Below are positions 11,543-24,206 of a DNA stretch of 64,000 bases, piece after piece (within the stretch, counting starts at the first letter, position 1; each line of letters begins with the position of its first letter). The position numbers were made by a program, and so were the translations under genes. The stretch is from an uncultured virus (IMG/VR IMGVR_UViG_2524614544_000001) (Duplodnaviria > Heunggongvirae > Uroviricota > Caudoviricetes). Below the pieces are notes generated by a model that searched no databases, was not told the DNA's origin, and saw only the letters and a list, made by a program, of their open reading frames with translations. The stretch lies in the IMG/VR virus record IMGVR_UViG_2524614544_000001. One strand, given 5' to 3'.

Positions 11543-12297
11543 GAGGCTTCTCCCAGGTCGTTGAAGGAGAGGGTGGTTTGCGGGCGGGTTCCGCCTCGGG
11601 CTTCCCAGGCGGTGCGGTACCGGTCGACGCCGTCGGAGCACTCCTCGCGGGCGTGGAAGATCGCGGAGTGCTCAGGGAGGTCCGGGCGCCACAGGTTCGG
11701 GCCGGGGAACCGGGTCGACTTCTGGCGGCGGGTGATGTGCTCGCCGCAGCTCATGCAGTGCCCGGCGGGGATCTCCATGAGGACTTCGGTGCGGGCCATC
11801 TCCCTGTCGGCGCTGGTCTCGGCCTCTTCGTGACGGCACGGCGGGAGTTCGCCGCAGGCCCGGCAGATCAGGTAGTGCTCGGGGAGGATCTGCCATGTGT
11901 AGTGGGCGGGCGCTTCGAGGTGAACGGGCTTGGCGGTGGGGTCCTGGTCGGGGACGGCGACGACGACGAAGGGGCGTCCGGCCCATGTGGCACGCTCGGG
12001 CTTGTCGCCTCGCTGGCTTCTCTCCCAGGCGCGGAGGATCCCGGCGAACATGGCCTCGTGTTCGTCGTCCCAGTCCTGAAGTCGGTCGACGATCTCGACG
12101 ATGCGCCACGGTGCCCGCTCGTAGATGAAGATGACGCCGGGGGTGAGCTGGACGTATCCGGCGATGGCGAGCTTCTCGTGGACGCGGTCCTGGTAGCGGC
12201 GGGACGCGGAGGAGGACTCGCCGATGCGGTTCCACTTGGTGACGGGCGGGTTGATGCCGCCCTTCTTCGTGGTCTGACGGGGGTACCAGCGGGTCAC
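11539..12297 (-). CDS. Phage hypothetical protein with two CxxC motifs
   Basis: GGAGG RBS; GC3 bias. Confidence 0.7.
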   Translation of the reverse strand: MTRWYPRQTTKKGGINPPVTKWNRIGESSSASRRYQDRVHEKLAIAGYVQLTPGVIFIYERAPWRIVEIVDRLQDWDDEHEAMFAGILRAWERSQRGDKPERATWAGRPFVVVAVPDQDPTAKPVHLEAPAHYTWQILPEHYLICRACGELPPCRHEEAETSADREMARTEVLMEIPAGHCMSCGEHITRRQKSTRFPGPNLWRPDLPEHSAIFHAREECSDGVDRYRTAWEARGGTRPQTTLSFNDLGEAS

Positions 12298-12998
12298 AGC
12301 GCCGCCTCCTTCTGGCGTGGGGTGAGTGGCCAGCCCCCTTCGACGACGGCGTCGGGCCGGGTCTGGCGGAAGTGGGCCTGAAGCGAGGCGGCCTGTTCGG
12401 CAGCCCACCCGACCTGCGCGGCATGCAGGTCAGCCAGGGTTATGACGGCGAGCTGCGGGTAGCGGGTGGCCTGCCGCCATGCGATCCGACAGGCGGCGAT
12501 TGCGTCGGCGTCGGCGGAGTGCGCACCGTCCAGTCGGACCTGGTAGTGCTCGCACAGGTGGGTGAGGGTCCGCTTCCCCGGCCGGTAGCGGTCGACTTCC
12601 TTGTCGATGACGAAGGGGTCGATGACCGGGCCGGCGGGCAGCGGGTCGAGGCCGAACCGTGCGGCTTCCCGGTCGAGGAGGGTGAGGTCGAAACGGGCGT
12701 TCATGGCGACGACGGGGGTGCCGGAGGTGATGACCTGCCGGAGTGCGGTCAGGATCTCGTCGACGGCCTGCCGCAAGTCGACCCCGTCTGCGTGGGCCTT
12801 CTCGGTGCTGATGCCGTGAACGGCGGCGGCCTCGGCGGGGATCTCCAGCCCGCCGACGTCGGTCAGCCAGTTCGCGGCCACGGTGGGCTGCTGGCCGCCG
12901 ACCTGGACGATGCACGCGGTGACGATGCGGGCGGTCAGCGGGTCGGGGCCCGTGGTCTCCAGGTCAAAGCCGGCCATGCGGCCGAGGTGCCAGGTCAT
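12294..12998 (-). CDS. DnaQ-like DEDDh 3'-5' exonuclease
   Basis: FDLETTG, MNARFD and AHSADAD motifs. Confidence 0.9.
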   Translation of the reverse strand: MTWHLGRMAGFDLETTGPDPLTARIVTACIVQVGGQQPTVAANWLTDVGGLEIPAEAAAVHGISTEKAHADGVDLRQAVDEILTALRQVITSGTPVVAMNARFDLTLLDREAARFGLDPLPAGPVIDPFVIDKEVDRYRPGKRTLTHLCEHYQVRLDGAHSADADAIAACRIAWRQATRYPQLAVITLADLHAAQVGWAAEQAASLQAHFRQTRPDAVVEGGWPLTPRQKEAAL

Positions 12999-14214: not shown

Positions 14215-15099
14215 CTACTTGCCGGAGCCGGGCTGGCGGACTTCCTGACCGGCCCACGGGTCGTCGTCCGGCGGCGGGGTGTTGTTGCCGTTCTTGGCCG
14301 GCGCCTTGCTTTTGATCTCCGCCGCGGTGATGCGGGCCTGCGGGAACTCGTCCTCGACAGCGATCTCCCGGCGCTGGATCGACTTGTGAGTGATGAGCAG
14401 CTGCGCAATGTCCGGGCCAGTCCACTGGTCGCGCTTCCGGCCGAGCTTCTGCTCCAGCCGGTCCGCGCTGACTCCGAGCCCGGCGAACACCTGGATGGCG
14501 CCCTCGATGCGTTCCGGGAGCGGCTTGCCGTCGCCCTTGTTCAGGGTCTGGCGGCACAGGTCTTCGGCCTCTTCGATGAACCAGTCCGGGATCGTCGCGA
14601 AGATCGCCTCGCGGAGGCGCCTCGCACCGTTGTTGGCGTTGTTCTCGTAGATGTCCCGGAGGTCTTCGAGCTGGACGACCTTGCGGTTGGCGAACTTGGC
14701 GTGCGGGACGATGAACGTGAGGACGTGCCGGGTGTTGTTCTCGACGTCCCAGGCCCAGGCCTGCATTTCGGACTGCCGGTACTCGTCGTCGCGGCGCATC
14801 TCGGTGACGCCGTACTGGATGTTGCCCCACGACTGGGCGAGGGTCTTCGCGAGGTGGATGGTGGAGCCTTCGACGGCGCCGCCCGCCCGGGGGAACCGGT
14901 AGAACGCCTTCCCGGCGAGGGCCATGGACTGGCAGGCGGAGTGGATGCTGTTGCGGGCGCGGCCGATGTCGCGGGGGAATTGGCGGGCCACGTAGATGGC
15001 GGCCTGGACCTCGGCGACGGCCCGGGACTGCTCGACCGCGGTGCCCTGGCCGAGGCGGTCCGGGGCGGGGGCGGGCTGCTGCTGGGCGGGGAAGTTCAC
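14215..15099 (-). CDS. Putative single-strand annealing recombinase (partner of the RecE-like exonuclease)
   Basis: Coupled downstream of the exonuclease; acidic DDDPW tail. Confidence 0.6.
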   Translation of the reverse strand: MNFPAQQQPAPAPDRLGQGTAVEQSRAVAEVQAAIYVARQFPRDIGRARNSIHSACQSMALAGKAFYRFPRAGGAVEGSTIHLAKTLAQSWGNIQYGVTEMRRDDEYRQSEMQAWAWDVENNTRHVLTFIVPHAKFANRKVVQLEDLRDIYENNANNGARRLREAIFATIPDWFIEEAEDLCRQTLNKGDGKPLPERIEGAIQVFAGLGVSADRLEQKLGRKRDQWTGPDIAQLLITHKSIQRREIAVEDEFPQARITAAEIKSKAPAKNGNNTPPPDDDPWAGQEVRQPGSGK

Positions 15100-15968
15100 A
15101 GGTACATCTCCTTGTCACGGTTCTCGGCGTAGCCGGGCAGAGCGAGGTAGTTGGGTTCGTCGCCGTATCCGGGCCAGTGGCCGGTGGACATGCACTCGGC
15201 GAAGATTTCGATGGCGCGGCGGTTCTTGGCGCCGCCGATCATGCGGGACCCGAACTCGATGCCGATGACGTTGATCAGGTACGGGGCTTTCTTCTCCTGC
15301 ACGATCAGGAGGAGTTCGGCGTCGTCGCCGCCGAGGCCGAGGGCTCGGGAGGCTTCCTCGTACCAGTCGGCCTGGCAGTTGTAGCCGTACTTCTCGATCT
15401 CCCTTTCCATGACCCGGTTGCTGGCGTCGGCGGCGGTCTTGTAGTCGGGGATGATCAGGCGGCCTTCCTGGATGGACGGCAGCCAGTCGAAGCGGACGCG
15501 GCGGCGGATGCCGGTCGGCCCGTCGATCCAGAACCCGGACTGCTCGGGGGCCCCGTAGGCGGGGTCGAGGAGTGCGGCTGCCAGGGGGTGCTGGCGGATG
15601 GCCGCGGCCATGCCGGTGACCATGTCCATCTCGTGCTGCTTGAGAGGGATGGCGCCGCGGTTGCGGGCTTCGGTGACCTCGGCTTTGGCGGCCTTGGTGT
15701 TCCATGTGTCGTGCTCGATGACGACGAGTTCGGGGCCGTTGCCGAGGACGAGCTTGTGGGCGGCGTTGCCGTAGTCGAACGTCTTCGTGGCCGGCTGCGG
15801 GTTGTCCTGCTCGTAGCGAAAGTGGGCGGGGGTGGACGGGGCCAGGAGCTTGCGGGCGCCGGAGGAGGAGAGGGACGTCTTGTCGGCGTGGTAGTCGGCG
15901 TTCGACAGGTCGGTGTGGATGCCCAGCGCGGGGGCTTCGGTGACCGGGTGGTCGGCGATGGCGGTCAT
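15096..15968 (-). CDS. RecE/exonuclease VIII-like PD-(D/E)XK nuclease
   Basis: YHAD...LSSSG, GNAAH, RFDWL, DYKT and YGYNCQADWY motifs. Confidence 0.88.
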   Translation of the reverse strand: MTAIADHPVTEAPALGIHTDLSNADYHADKTSLSSSGARKLLAPSTPAHFRYEQDNPQPATKTFDYGNAAHKLVLGNGPELVVIEHDTWNTKAAKAEVTEARNRGAIPLKQHEMDMVTGMAAAIRQHPLAAALLDPAYGAPEQSGFWIDGPTGIRRRVRFDWLPSIQEGRLIIPDYKTAADASNRVMEREIEKYGYNCQADWYEEASRALGLGGDDAELLLIVQEKKAPYLINVIGIEFGSRMIGGAKNRRAIEIFAECMSTGHWPGYGDEPNYLALPGYAENRDKEMYL

Positions 15969-16462
15969 GCTGCGGTGCCTTCCATGGTCGGGGCGTAGTA
16001 GCAGTGGCCGGGGCGTTCGCTGCGGAGTTCGAGGAGGCCCTCGCGGTGGAGGCGTTCGAGGCGGTCACGGGCGACGGACCGGTAGATGTGGGTGCCGGTC
16101 GCGCGGCGCAGGACCACCCGGGCCCGCCCCGGGGTCCACTCGCCGGCCTCGGTGGCGATGGCCTGCCGGAGTGCCCGCAGTGACTCCTGCGAGCTGACCG
16201 GGTGTCGGTTCGGCGGCTTCGGGTTGAGTCGGTAGGCGCGGCGGCCGTCGACGGTGGTGTGGATGAGGTGTCCGCGGTGGGCGAGGTCCCGGAGGTCTCG
16301 CCGTGCGGCATTGCGGCCGAGGGTGCTGTGCAGGTGGTTTCGGTAGAGGGAGCAGACGTCGCTGGTCGTGAGGGGGTGGCGGGGGATCTGCTTGATGAGG
16401 GTGAGCAGGTAGTCGCGGCGGCCGGTGACGTCCATGACCTGGCGGAGTTCGGTGGCGGTCAC
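15965..16462 (-). CDS. Tandem winged-helix-like protein
   Basis: Two ARxxLxxLxxxGxL repeats. Confidence 0.55.
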   Translation of the reverse strand: MTATELRQVMDVTGRRDYLLTLIKQIPRHPLTTSDVCSLYRNHLHSTLGRNAARRDLRDLAHRGHLIHTTVDGRRAYRLNPKPPNRHPVSSQESLRALRQAIATEAGEWTPGRARVVLRRATGTHIYRSVARDRLERLHREGLLELRSERPGHCYYAPTMEGTAA

Positions 16463-16637
16463 TTCTTGCCGTCCTGTTCGTCGAGGCAGTCTTCGCAGAC
16501 GGGGCCTTCGGGTTGGCGGCTGAACGGTCCGGCGGTGTCGTCGCAGCGGACGCAGGCGATCATGTGGTTCTCCTGGGATGATCTGTTTGGGTGCCCCCGC
16601 CGACTTCGCCTCGGCGGGGGCGTTCGTGTGAGGCGGG

Positions 16638-17744
16638 TCAGACCCGGACCGGCATGAGCACGGCCCGGTAGGTACCGCCGTCGGCCGGTTCGACCAGGGC
16701 CGGCTTCGTCGGCGTGGAGAACCACATGTCGACCGCCCCCTCGACCGGTGCGATCACCGAGGCCAGGTAGCCGGGCCGGTAGTAGATGGCGAACCCGTTC
16801 AAGCCGTCCTGTTCGGCGTCGACACGGGTGCGACCGGAAGGGCCTCCACTGCCACCACTGACCGTGGCCCCCTGACCGTCGAAGGCGACCTGTACCGGCT
16901 TGACGTCGCTTTCGTTGACCAGGGCTGCACGCTTCACTGCGGCCACCAGTTCGGCGGCGTCGAACGTGGCCTTGCCTGCGGCATCGTCCTTCTTCGGGAA
17001 CAGGCGGGTGATGTCGGGGAAGTCGGCGGCAATGCACCGGCTGGTCACGGTCATGGCCGCATTGGAGAGGGATGCCACCGCGTTTCCGGCGGTGGGGAAT
17101 CCGATGGTGACCTGCCCGCCGTCCAGGGCCTTGGCGGTTGCCGCCAGGTCCGGGGCAGGGATGAGGAGGCCGCCGTCGGCGTCCGCCCAAGGCAGGGCGT
17201 ACTGGACCATGCGGTAGCTGTCCGACGCCCGCACCCAAAGGGTGCCGTCGACGGCGGCGACGCTGACCCCGCCGAACGCTTCGAACCGGCCCACCGCATC
17301 CTTCTGCGGCATGGACACCGACGCGGCGTGCACCACCGCGGCGGCGAACCCGGCGCCGTCCACCGTTCCCGATGCGGCAGGCGCCTCGGGCAGGGCCGGG
17401 TAGTCGTTGCGGGCCATCACCGGCAGCTGGAACTGGTTGCCGGGGGTGGACACTTCGAGGTGGTACTCGTCGCCCACCAGGTCTACAGGCCCGGCCGGGA
17501 GCGCGGCGGTGACGTCGGCGAGCATCCGCCCGGACACCACGACCACACCGGGTTCGAGGACGGTGCCGTCGAGGGTGCTGCGGGTGCTGGTCTCGTAGTC
17601 GAACCCGGACAGGGTGACGGCACCGGTGTCGGCGGCGTCGAGGATGAGACCGCCCATGATCGGGGCGGGCGGGTTGGTGGGGAGCCGGCGGTGGGCGCGC
17701 TTCGCGGCGTCGGCCAACTGCTTCTGCTCGATGCGAATCTTCAC
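16638..17744 (-). CDS. dnaN: DNA polymerase III beta sliding clamp (phage-encoded)
   Basis: About 368 aa; LSGFDYETS, VVVSGRMLAD, DYPALP, ASDSYRM, FPDITRLFP and C-terminal LMPVR. Confidence 0.92.
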   Translation of the reverse strand: MKIRIEQKQLADAAKRAHRRLPTNPPAPIMGGLILDAADTGAVTLSGFDYETSTRSTLDGTVLEPGVVVVSGRMLADVTAALPAGPVDLVGDEYHLEVSTPGNQFQLPVMARNDYPALPEAPAASGTVDGAGFAAAVVHAASVSMPQKDAVGRFEAFGGVSVAAVDGTLWVRASDSYRMVQYALPWADADGGLLIPAPDLAATAKALDGGQVTIGFPTAGNAVASLSNAAMTVTSRCIAADFPDITRLFPKKDDAAGKATFDAAELVAAVKRAALVNESDVKPVQVAFDGQGATVSGGSGGPSGRTRVDAEQDGLNGFAIYYRPGYLASVIAPVEGAVDMWFSTPTKPALVEPADGGTYRAVLMPVRV

Positions 17745-17884
17745 TGCTGGGGCTCCTCGTCGAACAGTGCCTCGATCTGGAACGGGGCCGTCTCGGGTGC
17801 CTCCTCGTCGGGGTGCCACGGCATGGGCTGGCCGCTGCCGACGATCTCGGTGTCGGGGAACAGGGCGTCCTGCGTGTACTGCAT
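17741..17884 (-). CDS. 47-aa acidic peptide with two clamp-binding-like motifs (QDALF, QIEALF)
   Basis: AAGGAG RBS 6 nt before the ATG; its stop overlaps the dnaN start (GTGA). Confidence 0.65.
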   Translation of the reverse strand: MQYTQDALFPDTEIVGSGQPMPWHPDEEAPETAPFQIEALFDEEPQQ

Positions 17885-17947
17885 GGCGTGCTCCTTCGAT
17901 GAGTTGGGCGCCGGGCCGGGGGCCGGTGGCATCCGCCGGCCCGGCGG

Positions 17948-18457
17948 GTCAGGCGGCGATGACGCGGAACGACTGCGTGGTCTCCGAGTCGGAGTCGCCG
18001 GGCACCCAGGTCGGGGTGCGAGGGCCGGCGGCCGGTGCGTCGGCGATGCGGACGACGGGGCTGACGCCGTGGGCTTCCCACAGCGGGCGGTCGCCTGGTC
18101 GGCGCCGTCGTCGGTGTCCCGGATGCTCGGCGGGACAGTGATCTTGTTGGCGTTGGCGTCGGCCGCCAGGTACGGGGCGAGCCGGGCCCGGAGCGCGGCC
18201 ACTTCGTCGCGCAACTGGTCGCGCTCCTCGGTGCGGTCGCCGAGGTCCGCAGAGAGGCAGACGACGACCTGCTCGGCCTCGGCCCGCTTGCCGCGAACGT
18301 CGGCCAGCTGGTGCTCCAGGGCGGTGATGGCCTGGCCGGCGTTGATGACCTGGGCCCGGAGCTGGTGGTTCTCGGCGCGCAGGTCGGTCACGGCGTCGAT
18401 GGCACGGTGCTTGGGCTTGGTGCGGTGTATCCCGAAGTGAGCGAGGTGGATGCTCAT
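17948..18457 (-). pseudogene. Coiled-coil phage protein, apparently frameshifted near 18085
   Basis: Coding bias shifts frame after DQATA; the other frame reads LWEAHGVSPVV...VIAA-stop. Confidence 0.45.
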
Positions 18458-18548
18458 GACTTGCCCTTCCGGGGCCAGAGGGATGGGGCGGCGGCCAGTG
18501 CGCAGAAGGCGAGGCCGATCAGGGCGGCGGTGACCGTGTACGCGGCCA

Positions 18549-18836
18549 TCAGACGGTCGGGCTGTGGTTGCAGCGGCCGAGGAAGCAGGGTTTGGCCTGT
18601 TCCTTCCACTGCTGCGGGCTGAACAGCAGGTGCTGCATGCCGTGCCGCTCGTCGCTAGCCCGCTGGCGCTTCGTGGACGACCACTCCCGCTGCGCCTGCT
18701 GCGGGGTGGCGATCACGTCGCCGCGAAAGTCCGGGCGGACCGCGCCGACCACGCAACCCTGCGAGTTGACCCGCACCCAGAAGCAGTCAGCGAGCGGGTA
18801 CGTGACCCCGTCGATCTGCACCATGAGGTCAGCCAT
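18549..18836 (-). CDS. Phage hypothetical protein
   Basis: AAGGAG RBS; 95 aa. Confidence 0.65.
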   Translation of the reverse strand: MADLMVQIDGVTYPLADCFWVRVNSQGCVVGAVRPDFRGDVIATPQQAQREWSSTKRQRASDERHGMQHLLFSPQQWKEQAKPCFLGRCNHSPTV

Positions 18837-19001
18837 TGCTGGTCTCCTTGGCTGCGTTGGCGCGGGCGACGCTGTACGGGGCGTAGTCGTGGGCGGTGGC
18901 GGTCCGGGCCCGGCGTGCGGCGAGCGCTTCGATCAGGCGGGCCTCCTCCGACGCCGACATCCGGCGGGCGCGAACGTCATCCGCGTCCTGTAGAAGGGCC
19001 T

Positions 19002-19268
19002 TCACGACGTCACCTCCGAGAAGCCCGCCCACCTGCTGTTCAGCTCGTCCGCCGTGGGCTCCGGGGCCGGGATCGAGCAGCCAGCCGGCAAGGTGACGTA
19101 GCCGGAAGCCACCGTGTCCGCGTAGTTCCGCTCCGCCCTCAGATCCCGGGGCCGGTCGACGAGGTGCAGCGACCGGATCAGGGACTCGGCGACAGGGCCT
19201 GTGATGACGGGCGGGGCGTCGTCACACAGCAGGTGAGAGATCGCCACGGTCTCGGTGCGGGGAGTCAT
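19002..19268 (-). CDS. Phage hypothetical protein
   Basis: Coupled ORF in the early operon. Confidence 0.55.
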   Translation of the reverse strand: MTPRTETVAISHLLCDDAPPVITGPVAESLIRSLHLVDRPRDLRAERNYADTVASGYVTLPAGCSIPAPEPTADELNSRWAGFSEVTS

Positions 19269-19606
19269 GCCACACCTCCACAGGTGTTGCAGGTGAATCC
19301 CTCGGGCGGAGTCCCCTCGCAGCAGAGGCAGGGGTCCGTGATCTCGCGAAGCAGAGCGGACACATCAACGCGCAGGGCACGCGCGGCGATTACGACGTGA
19401 TCGATGGATACCTCGGCTCGCCGACCGGATTCGAGGTTCGCGATCACTGAGCGCTGGATCGGATACCCGGCCCCGGTCATCGCCTCGGCGAGCGCGCGGG
19501 CCGACATCAAGTTCGCCCTGCGTGCCTCTCGCAGCTTCTCGATCACCCGTGCCGAGATCGGCAGCGTTGGTGCGGCGGGGTCAATGACCCCGGCGTCGTC
19601 GTTCAT
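19265..19606 (-). CDS. XRE HTH protein with a C-terminal CxxC pair
   Basis: LREARR...IQRSVIANLESGRR. Confidence 0.75.
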   Translation of the reverse strand: MNDDAGVIDPAAPTLPISARVIEKLREARRANLMSARALAEAMTGAGYPIQRSVIANLESGRRAEVSIDHVVIAARALRVDVSALLREITDPCLCCEGTPPEGFTCNTCGGVA

Positions 19607-19872
19607 GCCGCCACCCGCCCGGGCTGGGCCGGGATGCTGATGCTGCGGACCCCGTCCTCGGCGGCCACCTGGTCCGCGACCTCGGCGGCCCGGTCCCGGT
19701 CTCGCCGCATGTCCGCCAGGTCGGCGGCCACGTCGGCGAGCTTGTCGAGCTGGTCCAGCGATGCGTCCGTGACCTCGACCCGCAGGGTGGCCCCGAGCCG
19801 CAGGAACGTGCGGGCACCGTCGGTCTCCAGCTGGATCGGGCGGTCGCCCCAGGCGAGGGTGAAGGTCTTCAT
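19603..19872 (-). CDS. Phage hypothetical protein
   Basis: GGAGG RBS; coupled ORF. Confidence 0.6.
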   Translation of the reverse strand: MKTFTLAWGDRPIQLETDGARTFLRLGATLRVEVTDASLDQLDKLADVAADLADMRRDRDRAAEVADQVAAEDGVRSISIPAQPGRVAA

Positions 19873-20156
19873 CGGGTGCCTCCGGGGAGCTGTTCGCCGT
19901 TCGTGACGTTGCGGATCGTGCGGATGTCGGCCTCCACGGCGGACAACTGCAACGTCCACCGGCCGTCGACCTCGGCGTGGAAGGTGATGCGCTGCTGCCC
20001 CTCCGACTTGGTCGCGAATTCGCCGTTCGCCAGGGCCGAAACCTGGATGCTTTGAGAGCTGTGAGCGACCTGGTGGGCAATGACCGTCTCGACGTGCCCG
20101 GCCTGCCACGTGATCTCGTAGACCTGCGGAGAGATGTCCGCGTAGAAGCTGCTCAT
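19869..20156 (-). CDS. Phage hypothetical protein
   Basis: Coupled ORF; GC3 bias. Confidence 0.6.
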   Translation of the reverse strand: MSSFYADISPQVYEITWQAGHVETVIAHQVAHSSQSIQVSALANGEFATKSEGQQRITFHAEVDGRWTLQLSAVEADIRTIRNVTNGEQLPGGTR

Positions 20157-22853: not shown

Positions 22854-24206
22854 GTGGCCCACGCCGAGAAACGCACCTACGACAAGCGCGCCAAGAAGTG
22901 GCGGTACCGGGGCAGGTACAAACTGCCGAACGGGAAGTGGGGCTCGGTCTCCCGGGATGATGACGGCAAGCCCTTCTACACCGAGAGGTCGGCGGAGGAC
23001 TACGCCCACGGCCTCGAAGTCGACGTCCGCCGCAAGGTGTTCCTCAACCCGCAGGACGGAAAGATCACCGTCGCCGACTGGGTGGCCATCTGGATCGAGT
23101 CCATCGAGCTCTCCCCCCTTTCCCTGCGGGACTACAAGAGCCGCCTGCGGGCCGTCATCCTTCCCGTCTGGGGCAGTGCCGCAGTGCGCGACATCACGCA
23201 GGTCGCCTACCGGACATGGGAGTTGTCCCTCAGGAAGCAGGGGTATGCCGAGAACTCCATCAGCGGGGTCCGGACTGTCTTCCGGACGCTGATGCAGGAC
23301 GCCGTCGCTTCCAAGCTCCGCGGCGACAACCCGATCCCCGATGGGACGGCTGGCCGGCGCGGCAAGTACAAGTCGAAGCGAGACGCAGAAGAGAAAATCT
23401 ACCCGACTGCCCACCAGGCCCTCCTCGTTGCACGCAACGGGCTGGCTCTCCGAGGGCTGAGCATGTACGCGCTGGTGCTGACGAGCTTTTATACCGGCCT
23501 GCGTATCGGCGAACTCGCCGGCCTGACTCAGGACCGGTTGCAGCTGGACGACCGCGGCCGAGGTCCGCGGATCTTGCTGAAGTATCAGTCGCAGTACATC
23601 GACGGCAAGCCGACCCTGGTTCCGGCGAAGTATGACTCGGAGCGCGGGCTCATCATCAACGATGGTCTGGCCACTCTGCTCAAGGAGCTCGTGGACTCCA
23701 AGCCAGGCGAGTTCGTTTTCACCGCCCCCAAGGGGGGCCGGTTGCTGATCGGGGGCGACTTCTACTCCGATACGTGGCATCCCATGGTGAACGGTCGGGC
23801 TGCGAAGCCGACGATCCGGGGCCGGGGGGCGCTGCCTGGCATTCGGCCAGTCGTCGGGATCGAGGGCATGGTGCCCCACGGCCTGCGGCACGGGCAGAAA
23901 GTGCTGCTGGACGAGGCTGGCCATCCGAGGGTGGCGGTAGAAGAGCGGATGGGTCACACTTTGCAGGGGGTCGAGGGCACCTACTCCCACACCACGTTGG
24001 GTATGGAGCTCGCCATCGCCGCTTCGCTACAGGCGACTTGGGAGACGGTATTCAGTCTCCCGGGTGATGGCGCCGGGTACGGCCCAGTGCCGACTGGCGA
24101 TGAGCCCGAAAAGTTGATCTCCCAGGAATCCCCCAGGCGTCGGCGGAAGCACCCTCAGCGGCCGGGTGTACTGCTGAGGAACGCCCCCACTGGATCGGCA
24201 AAGTAG
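22854..24206 (+). CDS. int: Tyrosine integrase
   Basis: TGLRIGEL, HGLRH, MGH and the catalytic Tyr in TYSH. Confidence 0.95.
   Translation: MAHAEKRTYDKRAKKWRYRGRYKLPNGKWGSVSRDDDGKPFYTERSAEDYAHGLEVDVRRKVFLNPQDGKITVADWVAIWIESIELSPLSLRDYKSRLRAVILPVWGSAAVRDITQVAYRTWELSLRKQGYAENSISGVRTVFRTLMQDAVASKLRGDNPIPDGTAGRRGKYKSKRDAEEKIYPTAHQALLVARNGLALRGLSMYALVLTSFYTGLRIGELAGLTQDRLQLDDRGRGPRILLKYQSQYIDGKPTLVPAKYDSERGLIINDGLATLLKELVDSKPGEFVFTAPKGGRLLIGGDFYSDTWHPMVNGRAAKPTIRGRGALPGIRPVVGIEGMVPHGLRHGQKVLLDEAGHPRVAVEERMGHTLQGVEGTYSHTTLGMELAIAASLQATWETVFSLPGDGAGYGPVPTGDEPEKLISQESPRRRRKHPQRPGVLLRNAPTGSAK

What the first reader, a model, noticed from the sequence alone, without database searches (positions are those of the whole stretch)
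16638..17884. Bivalent clamp-binding peptide coupled to a phage beta-clamp: candidate 'block the host clamp, bring your own' module
Seen: a 47-aa acidic ORF (MQYTQDALF...FQIEALFDEEPQQ) has its own AAGGAG RBS, and its TGA overlaps the GTG of a full-length DnaN homologue. It carries QDALF and QIEALF about 30 residues apart on a Pro/Glu-rich linker. Known: clamp partners bind through QL[S/D]LF-type (QxxLF) motifs, the clamp is a dimer with two binding pockets, and both the toxin SocB and the Streptomyces antibiotic griselimycin act at that pocket. Griselimycin producers self-protect with an extra DnaN. Inference: the peptide could occupy both pockets of the host clamp to stall host replication while the divergent phage clamp is insensitive. 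It could instead regulate the phage clamp itself.
Basis: partly seen in the sequence, partly recalled or inferred. Interest (0 to 1): 0.8.

Follow-up and report, generated by a model that had tools for sequence, protein, structure and literature searches.

The report
Clamp-docking mini-protein coupled to prophage clamp
A tiny acidic protein carrying a textbook sliding-clamp docking motif is always made together with a prophage's own DNA sliding clamp in Streptomyces-type phages, which suggests an undescribed way for a phage to take control of the host's DNA-copying machinery.

Summary
A 47-aa acidic ORF lies on the minus strand at 17884..17741. It has an AAGGAG ribosome site and overlaps the GTG of a full-length DnaN homologue (17744..16638) by 4 nt.

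It belongs to an unnamed family of about 40-aa proteins: 170 clusters, all "hypothetical", nearly all Streptomyces. The peptide precedes and overlaps the clamp gene in all 17 loci of the phage-type DnaN clade, and in one partial and one divergent locus. Conversely, the peptide was found only next to such a clamp gene (4 of 4 real hits in 401 genomes).

The family's core is an N-terminal Q-x-x-L-F-P clamp-binding motif, a conserved G..QP block and an acidic tail. The second motif (QIEALF), and so the bivalency, occurs in only 6 of 122 members.

Related phages encode no polymerase or clamp loader, so their clamp must keep a pocket that accepts host clients.

Clamp binding is likely (about 0.8). 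Blocking the host clamp while supplying a replacement is the leading reading (about 0.4) but is unproven.

The parts
17741..17884 (-). 47-aa acidic mini-protein gene (P0001), stop codon included
   Evidence: Translation. In-frame GC3 is 0.95-1.0. Homologues occupy the same position in 18 further loci. The family has 170 clusters.
17891..17896 (-). Shine-Dalgarno AAGGAG, 6 nt before the ATG
   Evidence: Sequence. A GGAG-type site sits at the same distance in the 17 loci listed.
17855..17872 (-). Codons of residues 5-10, QDALFP: the N-terminal clamp-binding motif that defines the family
   Evidence: L, F and G18 are invariant; Q and P are at least 90% conserved in 121 sequences. Q is present in 105 of 121 and P in 118 of 121. 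The motif fits the QLxLF consensus quoted in PMC11139829.
17816..17839 (-). Codons of residues 16-23 (G-S-G-Q-P-M-P-W): the window's version of the conserved central block (G..QP.P). Most relatives have LQTEGYAQPEPR here.
   Evidence: G18 is invariant; the QP that follows (aligned with the window's Q19-P20) is at least 90% conserved. Function unknown.
17762..17779 (-). Codons of residues 36-41, QIEALF: a second, lineage-specific CBM-like motif
   Evidence: It is kept as QVEVLF in L005, P0113 and P0122. Other second motifs (QFAF, QLAF, QIAF) occur in P0108/L016, L034, P0115 and P0126. In all, 6 of 122 family proteins have one.
17741..17744 (-). GTGA overlap of the peptide stop with the dnaN start (translational coupling)
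   Evidence: A 4-nt (GTGA/ATGA) or 1-nt (TGATG) overlap is present in all 17 loci listed, and in L034 (printout).
16638..17744 (-). Prophage-encoded beta sliding clamp (DnaN homologue, 368 aa, P0002)
   Evidence: Pfam N, central and C domains. phrog_947 at 3.9e-59. PDB mycobacterial clamps at E 1e-44 to 1e-42. AF2 model with pLDDT 88.9 and TM 0.87-0.92 to mycobacterial clamps. TIGR00663 score 126.4 bits, just under the 137.65 cut-off.

Best explanation
What the sequences show. The 47-aa ORF encodes a very acidic mini-protein that is probably disordered. Its N-terminal Q-x-x-L-F-P is a beta-clamp-binding motif. It is translated from its own strong ribosome site. Its stop overlaps the start of the prophage's own clamp gene, so both are made together, with the peptide at least as abundant as the clamp.

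First inference (about 0.8). The LF pair docks in subsite I and the Gln in subsite II of the hydrophobic pocket of a beta clamp. The acidic tail complements the basic rim around that pocket. In this window's lineage a second CBM-like motif, 26 residues further on, would let one peptide engage both pockets of one ring.

Second inference (about 0.4). The main target is the host's clamp. By filling its pockets, the peptide would keep host Pol III alpha, the clamp loader and repair enzymes off host clamps. The co-expressed phage clamp differs from a host clamp at 9 of 18 pocket positions. It would be bound less well and would carry phage replication with borrowed host polymerase.
For: The gene is real.
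- RBS, GC3 and the overlapping stop/start support it.
- The peptide is present in all 17 loci of the well-supported phage-type DnaN clade, and in the partial L029 and the divergent L034.
- The peptide profile found 4 real hits in 401 Streptomyces genomes, every one directly before a phage-type dnaN.

The motif is a CBM.
- LF is invariant, Q is present in 105 of 121 sequences and P in 118 of 121.
- Common forms are QLNLFP, QLALFP, QLDLFP and QDALFP. These fit the QLxLF consensus and its acidic flanks as described in PMC11139829 (passages read).
- DnaE1 of a related host carries QFDLF followed by acidic residues.
- CBM-like second motifs recur in several lineages.

Host as the target.
- Clamps that are 83% identical (L016, L026) pair with peptides that share only LFP. 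The region after the CBM is therefore not co-adapted to the phage's own clamp.
- A peptide made at or above the level of the clamp would defeat the phage's purpose if it blocked the phage's own clamp (inference).
- The window clamp differs from a related host DnaN (L006) at 9 of 18 pocket positions.
- Pocket point mutations make a clamp resistant to the pocket-binding toxin RipA while cells stay viable (PMC12795458, passages).
- MuC of phage Mu has two CBMs and is lethal when overexpressed (PMC12867686, abstract).
- Twort Gp168 shows that phages do inhibit the host clamp (PMC8565349, passages).
Against:
- Related phages have no Pol III alpha, no family A or B polymerase and no clamp-loader family: 0 of 5 records each, 3 of them estimated complete. 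None was seen among 77 proteins of the window either. The phage clamp must therefore bind the host's own CBMs. It is hard to see how its pocket would accept those and reject a near-consensus CBM.
- The C-terminal pocket strand M-P-V-R and several other pocket residues are the same in phage and host clamps.
- Strict linkage and coupling fit a direct partner of the phage clamp equally well.
- dN/dS over the short ORF is noisy, 0.32 to 1.98 in 10 pairs with one more undefined. Only the head region looks constrained, and only in some pairs.
- The invariant Pro after LF and the conserved G..QP block are not explained by this model.
Confidence: 0.4

Rival explanations
1. The peptide is a dedicated ligand of the phage's own clamp. 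It could be a pocket 'cap' or gatekeeper that keeps host clamp clients (repair or translesion polymerases, mismatch repair) off the phage clamp until the clamp loader and Pol III alpha displace it. Alternatively it could be an adaptor whose conserved central block (LQTEGYAQPEPR, or G-S-G-Q-P-x-P-W here) brings another phage or host protein to the phage clamp.
For: - The peptide was found only in front of a phage-type dnaN (4 of 4 real hits in 401 genomes).
- It overlaps the dnaN start in every locus. That pattern is typical of subunits of one complex.
- A second conserved block beyond the CBM has G18 invariant and A, Q, P and E at least 90% conserved. This suggests a second binding surface.
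- The phage clamp pocket is intact in overall character and is conserved within the clade.
Against: - Near-identical clamps (83%) carry unrelated post-CBM regions, which argues against co-adaptation.
- A peptide made at or above clamp level, with two motifs in some lineages, would block the phage's own clamp (inference).
- No peptide-DnaN fusion was found among 5 longer hits. That search is weak evidence.
Confidence: 0.3
2. The peptide binds any beta clamp without preference. It would act as a general competitor that changes which clients win access during lytic growth. It could also couple another process to the clamp, for example late transcription, as T4 gp33/gp45 and Mu MuC do.
For: - The CBM is generic and near consensus.
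- MuC-family phage activators carry CBMs and use the clamp for late transcription (PMC12867686 abstract).
- The conserved central block could contact RNA polymerase or another partner (speculation).
Against: - There is no DNA-binding or other domain in 47 residues: Pfam, PHROGs and NCBIfam give 0 families.
- The gene sits in the early replication/recombination module (RecE-like, RecT-like and DnaQ-like neighbours), not beside late genes.
- This reading does not explain why the peptide needs a phage clamp next to it.
Confidence: 0.15
3. The ORF does not act through the clamp. The QxxLFP resemblance would be coincidental. The peptide would then be a leader ORF whose translation merely controls dnaN expression, or it would have an unrelated target.
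For: - Coupling means its translation does set dnaN translation.
- The C-terminal ...AEAA codons overlap the dnaN Shine-Dalgarno sequence.
- The tail evolves almost neutrally in sequence.
Against: - A mere leader would not keep L, F and G invariant and Q and P at 87% and 98% across 121 sequences, at about 27% mean column identity.
- It would not keep a strongly acidic composition (median net charge about -9).
- It would not repeatedly acquire second CBM-like motifs.
- The motif is rare by chance.
Confidence: 0.1

Closest known systems
Canonical clamp-binding-motif clients of the bacterial beta clamp (Pol III alpha, Pol II/IV/V, delta, Hda; consensus QL[SD]LF / QLxLxF)
   Same: A Q-x-x-L-F motif in a terminal, probably disordered segment with acidic flanks. 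QLNLF, common in the family, is the Pol V motif quoted in PMC11139829. Placing the motif at the N-terminus, as in Hda, is recalled and comes from no call.
   Different: Here the motif is almost the whole protein. There is no enzymatic or DNA-binding domain. A Pro after the F is nearly invariant. The gene is tied to a phage-encoded clamp.
Phage Mu MuC (Mor/MuC family)
   Same: A phage protein with two near-consensus CBMs, one N-terminal and one C-terminal, that binds the clamp and is lethal when overexpressed (PMC12867686 abstract).
   Different: MuC is a DNA-binding transcription activator that uses the host clamp. The peptide here has no such domain and is not detectably related to it (0 Pfam families). 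Most of its relatives have a single CBM, and it comes with the phage's own clamp.
Staphylococcus phage Twort Gp168 (and G1 ORF240; the latter is recalled and comes from no call)
   Same: A small phage-encoded protein that inactivates the host beta clamp (PMC8565349, passages; PMC11139829).
   Different: Gp168 is a helical dimer that plugs the DNA channel and does not touch the protein-binding pocket. It has no CBM. The peptide matched no PHROG family.
Clamp-pocket toxins SocB (Caulobacter) and RipA (S. pneumoniae)
   Same: Proteins that act at the hydrophobic pocket and stall replication. Pocket substitutions give resistance (PMC12795458, passages). This is the logic a resistant replacement clamp would need.
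   Different: They are chromosomal toxin-antitoxin toxins with a protein antitoxin or protease control. Here the linked gene is a second clamp, not an antitoxin. No sequence comparison was made.
Extra DnaN as self-resistance in griselimycin and mycoplanecin producers
   Same: A second, divergent clamp sits next to the source of a pocket ligand. Griselimycin binds the pocket (PMC11139829). The resistance role of the extra DnaN is recalled and comes from no call.
   Different: There the ligand is a non-ribosomal cyclic peptide and the setting is a biosynthetic cluster. Here the ligand would be a ribosomal mini-protein in a prophage replication module.

Membership tests
Bacterial beta sliding clamp (DnaN), for the downstream gene | Three DNA_pol3_beta domains over the full length | tested here: met
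   Pfam N domain 79.2 bits and C domain 30.1 bits are above their cut-offs. The central domain, at 25.3 bits, is just under its 27-bit cut-off. phrog_947 covers residues 1-368 at 3.9e-59.
Bacterial beta sliding clamp (DnaN), for the downstream gene | Beta-clamp fold | tested here: met
   AF2 model with pLDDT 88.9 and pTM 0.84. Foldseek TM 0.87-0.92 to mycobacterial clamps such as 8djq and 3p16.
Bacterial beta sliding clamp (DnaN), for the downstream gene | Scores as the chromosomal dnaN equivalog (TIGR00663 cut-off) | tested here: not met
   126.4 bits against a cut-off of 137.65. The host-type DnaN of a related genome (L006) scores 304.2. The gene is a divergent phage-type homologue, not the housekeeping equivalog.
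Bacterial beta sliding clamp (DnaN), for the downstream gene | Protein-binding pocket residues, including the C-terminal M-P-x-R strand | tested here: met
   M362, P363 and R365 (E. coli numbering) are kept in all 18 phage-derived clamp sequences of the table. P242 and R176 are also kept. The window clamp differs from host L006 at 9 of 18 pocket positions (residue list from PMC11139829).
Bacterial beta sliding clamp (DnaN), for the downstream gene | Forms a head-to-tail dimeric ring that the clamp loader places on DNA | not testable with these tools
Clamp-binding-motif (CBM) ligands of the beta clamp, for the peptide | Q-x-x-L-F (or QxxLxF) motif | tested here: met
   QDALF and QIEALF. Across the family, LF is present in 121 of 121 sequences and Q in 105 of 121.
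Clamp-binding-motif (CBM) ligands of the beta clamp, for the peptide | Motif conserved among homologues and rare by chance | tested here: met
   Shuffles give at least one motif in 3.1% and at least two in 0.19%.
Clamp-binding-motif (CBM) ligands of the beta clamp, for the peptide | Physical binding to the hydrophobic pocket | not testable with these tools
Twort Gp168-type phage clamp inhibitors | Sequence-family membership | tested here: inconclusive
   The peptide matches no PHROG or Pfam family. No direct comparison with Gp168 was made. The known mechanism (DNA-channel plug, no CBM) differs.
Mor/MuC CBM-bearing transcription activators | DNA-binding activator domain together with CBM(s) | tested here: not met
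   The peptide is 47 aa and has no Pfam or NCBIfam domain. Only the presence of CBMs is shared.

The most novel reading that the evidence does not exclude
The peptide and the phage clamp form an 'inhibitor plus resistant replacement' pair. The ribosomally made mini-protein would plug the pockets of the host's beta clamp, in some lineages both pockets of one ring at once. Its acidic tail would lie over the basic face. This would shut down host replication and repair. The co-translated phage clamp, altered at half of its pocket positions, would escape and capture the host's Pol III and clamp loader for the phage genome. That would be a natural, genetically encoded counterpart of griselimycin plus a resistant extra DnaN, and the first pocket-directed phage inhibitor of the bacterial clamp.
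Probability: 0.35. Interest if true: 0.8.

Novelty: new variant of a known kind. Interest (0 to 1): 0.68.

Why it matters
The beta-clamp pocket is a validated antibiotic target (griselimycin, CBM-derived peptides). Only a few natural protein ligands that disable the clamp are known: SocB and RipA at the pocket, and Twort Gp168 in the DNA channel.

This is a widespread and unannotated family of about 40-residue natural peptides built around a clamp-binding motif. Each member is paired with a divergent clamp.

If the pair works as inhibitor plus insensitive clamp, two things follow. It would give sequence rules for pocket selectivity, from about 20 natural clamp variants set against their host clamps. 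It would also show a new phage strategy for taking over a host replisome without encoding a polymerase.

If the peptide instead regulates the phage's own clamp, it would be a new kind of clamp accessory subunit. Either outcome can be tested directly with short synthetic peptides and two purified clamps.

Tried and rejected
- A single-sequence search with the peptide found nothing. The profile search was needed.
- Single-protein and DNA-pattern scans of viral contigs found nothing.
- A DNA search of cultured phages gave only one weak dnaN hit.
- A protein search of cultured phages gave 77 records, none of them a Streptomyces phage. The 5 dnaN neighbourhoods examined have no such peptide.
- The window's own assembly is not held. 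The nearest record, G001, is an adjacent provirus covering window 28318-64000, and it does not contain the locus.
- The search for longer or fused forms gave 5 hits: three read-throughs from the upstream gene, one 96-aa form and the window's own 238-aa ORF. None is a DnaN fusion.
- The ESM Atlas gave no usable hit.
- Sequencing runs: no RNA holder is listed.
- Rfam found nothing in 15000-20000.
- The sigma-70 promoter and intrinsic-terminator scans found nothing in 16300-18700.
- dN/dS over this short ORF is too noisy to decide anything.
- Covariation between CBM positions 2-3 and pocket residues was considered and dropped. The same CBM (QDALFP) pairs with different pockets, and identical pockets pair with different CBMs. 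Those positions are tolerant anyway.
- Literature searches for a described equivalent found none. The searched library lacks most subscription journals.
Full report
**1. What is there**

Both genes lie on the minus strand.
- Positions 17884..17741 translate to a 47-residue peptide followed by TGA.
- AAGGAG lies at 17896..17891, 6 nt before the ATG.
- The stop overlaps the GTG at 17744 of a 368-aa ORF ending at 16638, giving a GTGA junction.
- Third-position GC in the peptide's frame is 0.95-1.0 across the ORF. It switches to the clamp's frame exactly at the junction.
- The peptide has QDALF at residues 5-9, followed by Pro, and QIEALF at residues 36-41. It has 11 Asp/Glu and no Lys or Arg.
- Q..LF or Q...LF occurs 6 times in 15,289 residues of the window's called proteins, and two of the six are in this peptide. 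Shuffles of the peptide give at least two motifs in 0.19% of 200,000 trials.

**2. The downstream gene is a divergent but complete beta clamp**

- It matches the Pfam N, central and C DNA_pol3_beta domains. The central domain is marginally under its cut-off.
- It matches phrog_947, 'DNA polymerase processivity factor', at 3.9e-59 over its full length.
- It matches solved mycobacterial clamps at E 1e-44 to 1e-42.
- An AlphaFold2 model built on 17 homologues has pLDDT 88.9 and pTM 0.84. It superposes on mycobacterial clamps with TM 0.87-0.92.
- It scores 126.4 bits on the dnaN equivalog model TIGR00663, whose cut-off is 137.65. The chromosomal DnaN of a related Streptomyces genome scores 304.2.

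It is therefore a phage-type homologue and not a copy of the housekeeping gene.

**3. Setting**

- Window 28318-64000 is identical to the first 35,683 bases of an IMG/VR provirus record, G001. It holds tail, capsid, terminase, portal and lysis genes.
- The finding lies outside that record, in a second prophage-like early region.
- That region has a tyrosine integrase (22854-24206, +) and an HTH regulator.
- Its minus strand carries a run of early genes: the peptide, dnaN, a RecE-like PDDEXK exonuclease (15096-15968), a conserved partner gene in the position where RecT-like genes sit in relatives (14215-15099, phrog_3657, unannotated), a DnaQ-like exonuclease (12294-12998), a C5 methylase and an HNH protein.
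- No DNA polymerase, clamp loader or DnaB was seen among the 77 window proteins scanned. This prophage runs off the left end of the window, however.

**4.

*From the clamp to the peptide*
- The clamp protein found one locus in the species-representative genomes (Streptomyces sp. or43, 76% identity).
- It found two more in 401 sampled Streptomyces genomes (57-58% identity; 3 of 401 genomes at E <= 1e-60).
- A clamp alignment found 15 loci in IMG/VR.
- A maximum-likelihood tree puts 17 full-length clamps in one clade with 100/99 support. These are the window, L005, L008, L009 and L015-L027; L009 and L021 are identical.
- All 17 have a 38-53-aa ORF with a GGAG-type ribosome site. Its stop overlaps the dnaN start by 4 nt (GTGA/ATGA) or 1 nt (TGATG).
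- The partial locus L029 has the peptide too.
- L028 has a clamp 37-38% identical to the window's that groups with host-type clamps. It has no such ORF.
- Five more distant dnaN neighbourhoods were examined: Arthrobacter phages Tiff81 and ArV1, Mycobacterium phages DS6A and prophi91-4, and a faecal contig. None has the peptide. prophi91-4 has an overlapping 48-aa ORF without the motif.

*From the peptide to the clamp*
- A profile of 17 peptides, run over the same 401 genomes, gave 6 matches at E <= 0.001.
- Three are the genomes already known.
- A fourth (G385) is a two-motif peptide whose stop overlaps (ATGA) a clamp only 29% identical to the window's.
- The two weakest matches (E about 5e-4) lie inside long unrelated ORFs with no clamp nearby and are taken as false.

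The peptide was therefore found only in front of a phage-type clamp.

**5. The family**

- The same profile found 170 protein clusters at E <= 0.01 in the 5.8-billion-protein collection.
- Every name given by a source is 'hypothetical protein'. Every named organism among the 120 listed is Streptomyces, except one Jiangellaceae MAG. None has a Pfam domain.
- In an alignment of the window peptide with those 120, L, F and G18 are invariant. Q5, P10 and a following A-Q-P-E are at least 90% conserved.
- Q sits three residues before LF in 105 of 121 sequences, and P follows LF in 118 of 121.
- Median length is 41 residues. Median net charge is about -9, with a range of -3 to -14.
- Common N-terminal motifs are QDALFP (19), QPALFP (17), QLNLFP (10), QDTLFP (8) and QPELFP (8).
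- The usual architecture ('type B', 117 of 122) has four parts: the CBM, then LQTEG[YW]AQPEPR, then an acidic tail of variable sequence, then ...AEAA. The last codons overlap the dnaN Shine-Dalgarno sequence.
- The window belongs to a rare 'type A' (5 of 122), in which the central block reads G-x-G-x-P-x-P-W.
- A second CBM-like motif is present in 6 of 122: QIEALF or QVEVLF in the window's lineage, QFAF in P0108/L016, and QLAF-DF or QIAF-DF appended to type-B peptides P0115 and P0126. L034 adds another (QLAF).

Bivalency is thus real here and has arisen or been kept in several lineages. It is not what defines the family.

**6. Is it a clamp-binding motif?**

The 2024 review PMC11139829 (passages read) makes these points:
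- It gives QLxLF and QLxLxF as the tightest consensus.
- Gln is important but dispensable, and the LF pair is the anchor in subsite I.
- CBM flanks are typically acidic, against a basic surface around the pocket.
- QLNLF is the Pol V motif.

The family fits all of this. DnaE1 of a related host (G002) carries QFDLF followed by Gly and acidic residues. The peptide therefore looks like the native client motif of the same kind of host.

I put clamp-pocket docking at about 0.8. It is an inference from sequence.

**7. Which clamp?**

*Facts that bear on it*

(a) Five related virus records were searched. Three are estimated 100% complete and one has terminal repeats.
- Pol III alpha, family A polymerase, family B polymerase and the clamp-loader family PF13177 were each found in 0 of 5.
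- DnaB-type helicase was found in 4 of 5.
- These phages therefore depend on the host polymerase and host clamp loader. Both use the clamp pocket, so the phage clamp's pocket must stay functional for host CBMs.

(b) The 18 pocket positions listed in the review were compared, using E. coli numbering from the K-12 gene.
- The window clamp is identical to a related host DnaN at 9 positions: Y175, R176, P242, L247, T344 and M362-R365.
- It differs at 9: positions 152, 155, 172, 174, 177, 246, 320, 323 and 360.
- Most phage clamps have Arg where host clamps have Asn320, in the Gln subsite.

(c) Pocket point mutations can abolish binding of the pocket toxin RipA while cells remain viable (PMC12795458, passages). 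Selective escape is therefore possible in principle.

(d) L016 and L026 have clamps that are 83% identical (307 of 368), but one has a type-A two-motif peptide and the other a type-B peptide. The two peptides share only LFP (BLASTP E 9.1). What follows the CBM is evidently not co-adapted to the cognate phage clamp.

(e) The upstream position and strong SD imply that the peptide is at least as abundant as the clamp (inference).

*Weighing*
- Points (c), (d) and (e), together with the recurrent second motifs (which add avidity, a property of inhibitors), favour the host clamp as target.
- Point (a), and the strict genetic linkage, favour a direct role on the phage clamp or at least no discrimination.

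My estimates are: host-clamp blocker with replacement clamp 0.4; ligand, gatekeeper or adaptor of the phage clamp 0.3; indiscriminate competitor or coupling factor 0.15; not clamp-directed 0.1.

**8. What remains unexplained**

- The near-invariant Pro after LF.
- The conserved central block (G..QP.P, or LQTEGYAQPEPR).

dN/dS is noisy for so short a gene: 0.32-1.98 in 10 pairs, with one more undefined. In several pairs the head (CBM plus central block) has dN well below dS, for example 0.08 against 0.40 and 0.02 against 0.19. The tail changes almost freely while staying acidic. This fits a short-linear-motif protein with a charge-only tail.

**9. Comparison with what is known**

| Known system | Shared with the peptide | Different | Source |
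|---|---|---|---|
| Twort Gp168 | Small phage protein that disables the host clamp | Plugs the DNA channel, not the pocket | PMC8565349, |
| Mu MuC | Two CBMs; overexpression is lethal through the host clamp | A transcription activator with a DNA-binding domain | PMC12867686 abstract, |
| SocB and RipA | Act at the pocket | Toxin-antitoxin toxins | |
| Griselimycin | A pocket ligand whose producer carries an extra DnaN (the resistance role is recalled) | A non-ribosomal cyclic peptide in a biosynthetic cluster | |

None of these is a roughly 40-residue CBM peptide translationally coupled to a phage clamp. Five full-text searches found no description of such a pair. The library lacks most subscription journals, so this is not proof of absence.

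It is an AI note and not independent evidence. Its claim of recurrence was re-tested here.

**10. Verdict**

This is a real, conserved, unannotated gene family with a clear and testable mechanistic hypothesis. The 'bivalent' emphasis applies only to a minority of the family. The selectivity claim is open. Novelty: a new variant of a known kind, namely phage or toxin proteins that act on the beta clamp through a clamp-binding motif.

Noticed in passing
window 17949-18457 (-): The gene upstream of the peptide looks frameshifted. A coiled-coil ORF starts at 18457. Near 18100 the GC3 signal moves to another frame, which ends at the stop at 17951..17949. The homologue in L004 (2349-2789) is a single ORF with a similar C-terminus. 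This could be a sequencing error, a pseudogene or a real frameshift.
   Followed up: partly
window 17933-17947; L015-L027 about 30-80 nt before the peptide start: There is a conserved non-coding element in front of the peptide ORF. It is a GC-rich hairpin (7 predicted pairs, one with compensatory changes in 4 of 12 sequences), followed in type-B loci by a conserved CCACCAGCATCCCAC-like stretch and the SD. The window has a CCGCCGG/CCGGCGG palindrome at the same place. There is no Rfam match. It could be a terminator of the upstream gene or a regulatory site.
   Followed up: partly
L004 4181-4810; L026 3674-4315: In two relatives a 209-213-aa protein directly follows the phage dnaN. It hits phrog_12598, labelled 'RusA-like resolvase', yet the central part of the window's clamp also hits a 'RusA-like' PHROG (phrog_3007). 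The PHROG labels look wrong, and this is probably a short clamp-like paralogue. The window lacks it.
   Followed up: no
window 1-24300 versus 28318-64000: The window holds two phage-like regions. One is an early replication/recombination region with an integrase (22854-24206), which contains the finding and runs off the left end. The other is a separate IMG/VR provirus (G001) with structural and lysis genes. Whether they are one element or two adjacent prophages was not resolved.
   Followed up: partly
window 12294-12998 (-): A DnaQ-like 3'-5' exonuclease (Pfam RNase_T; phrog_192 'DNA polymerase exonuclease subunit') lies in the same module as the clamp, and also in L018 (4359-4973). With no polymerase gene in related phages, the phage appears to bring clamp, proofreader-like and helicase parts but not the polymerase.
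   Followed up: partly
window 16459-16563 (-): A 34-aa ORF with two CxxC pairs (zinc-ribbon-like) lies between dnaN and the next gene. It has no family match.
   Followed up: no
proteins P0123-P0125: In some relatives the peptide is in frame with the upstream 300-aa gene with no stop between, so gene callers report a 341-346-aa protein ending in the peptide. The internal SD and ATG are kept, so the peptide may still be made separately.
   Followed up: no
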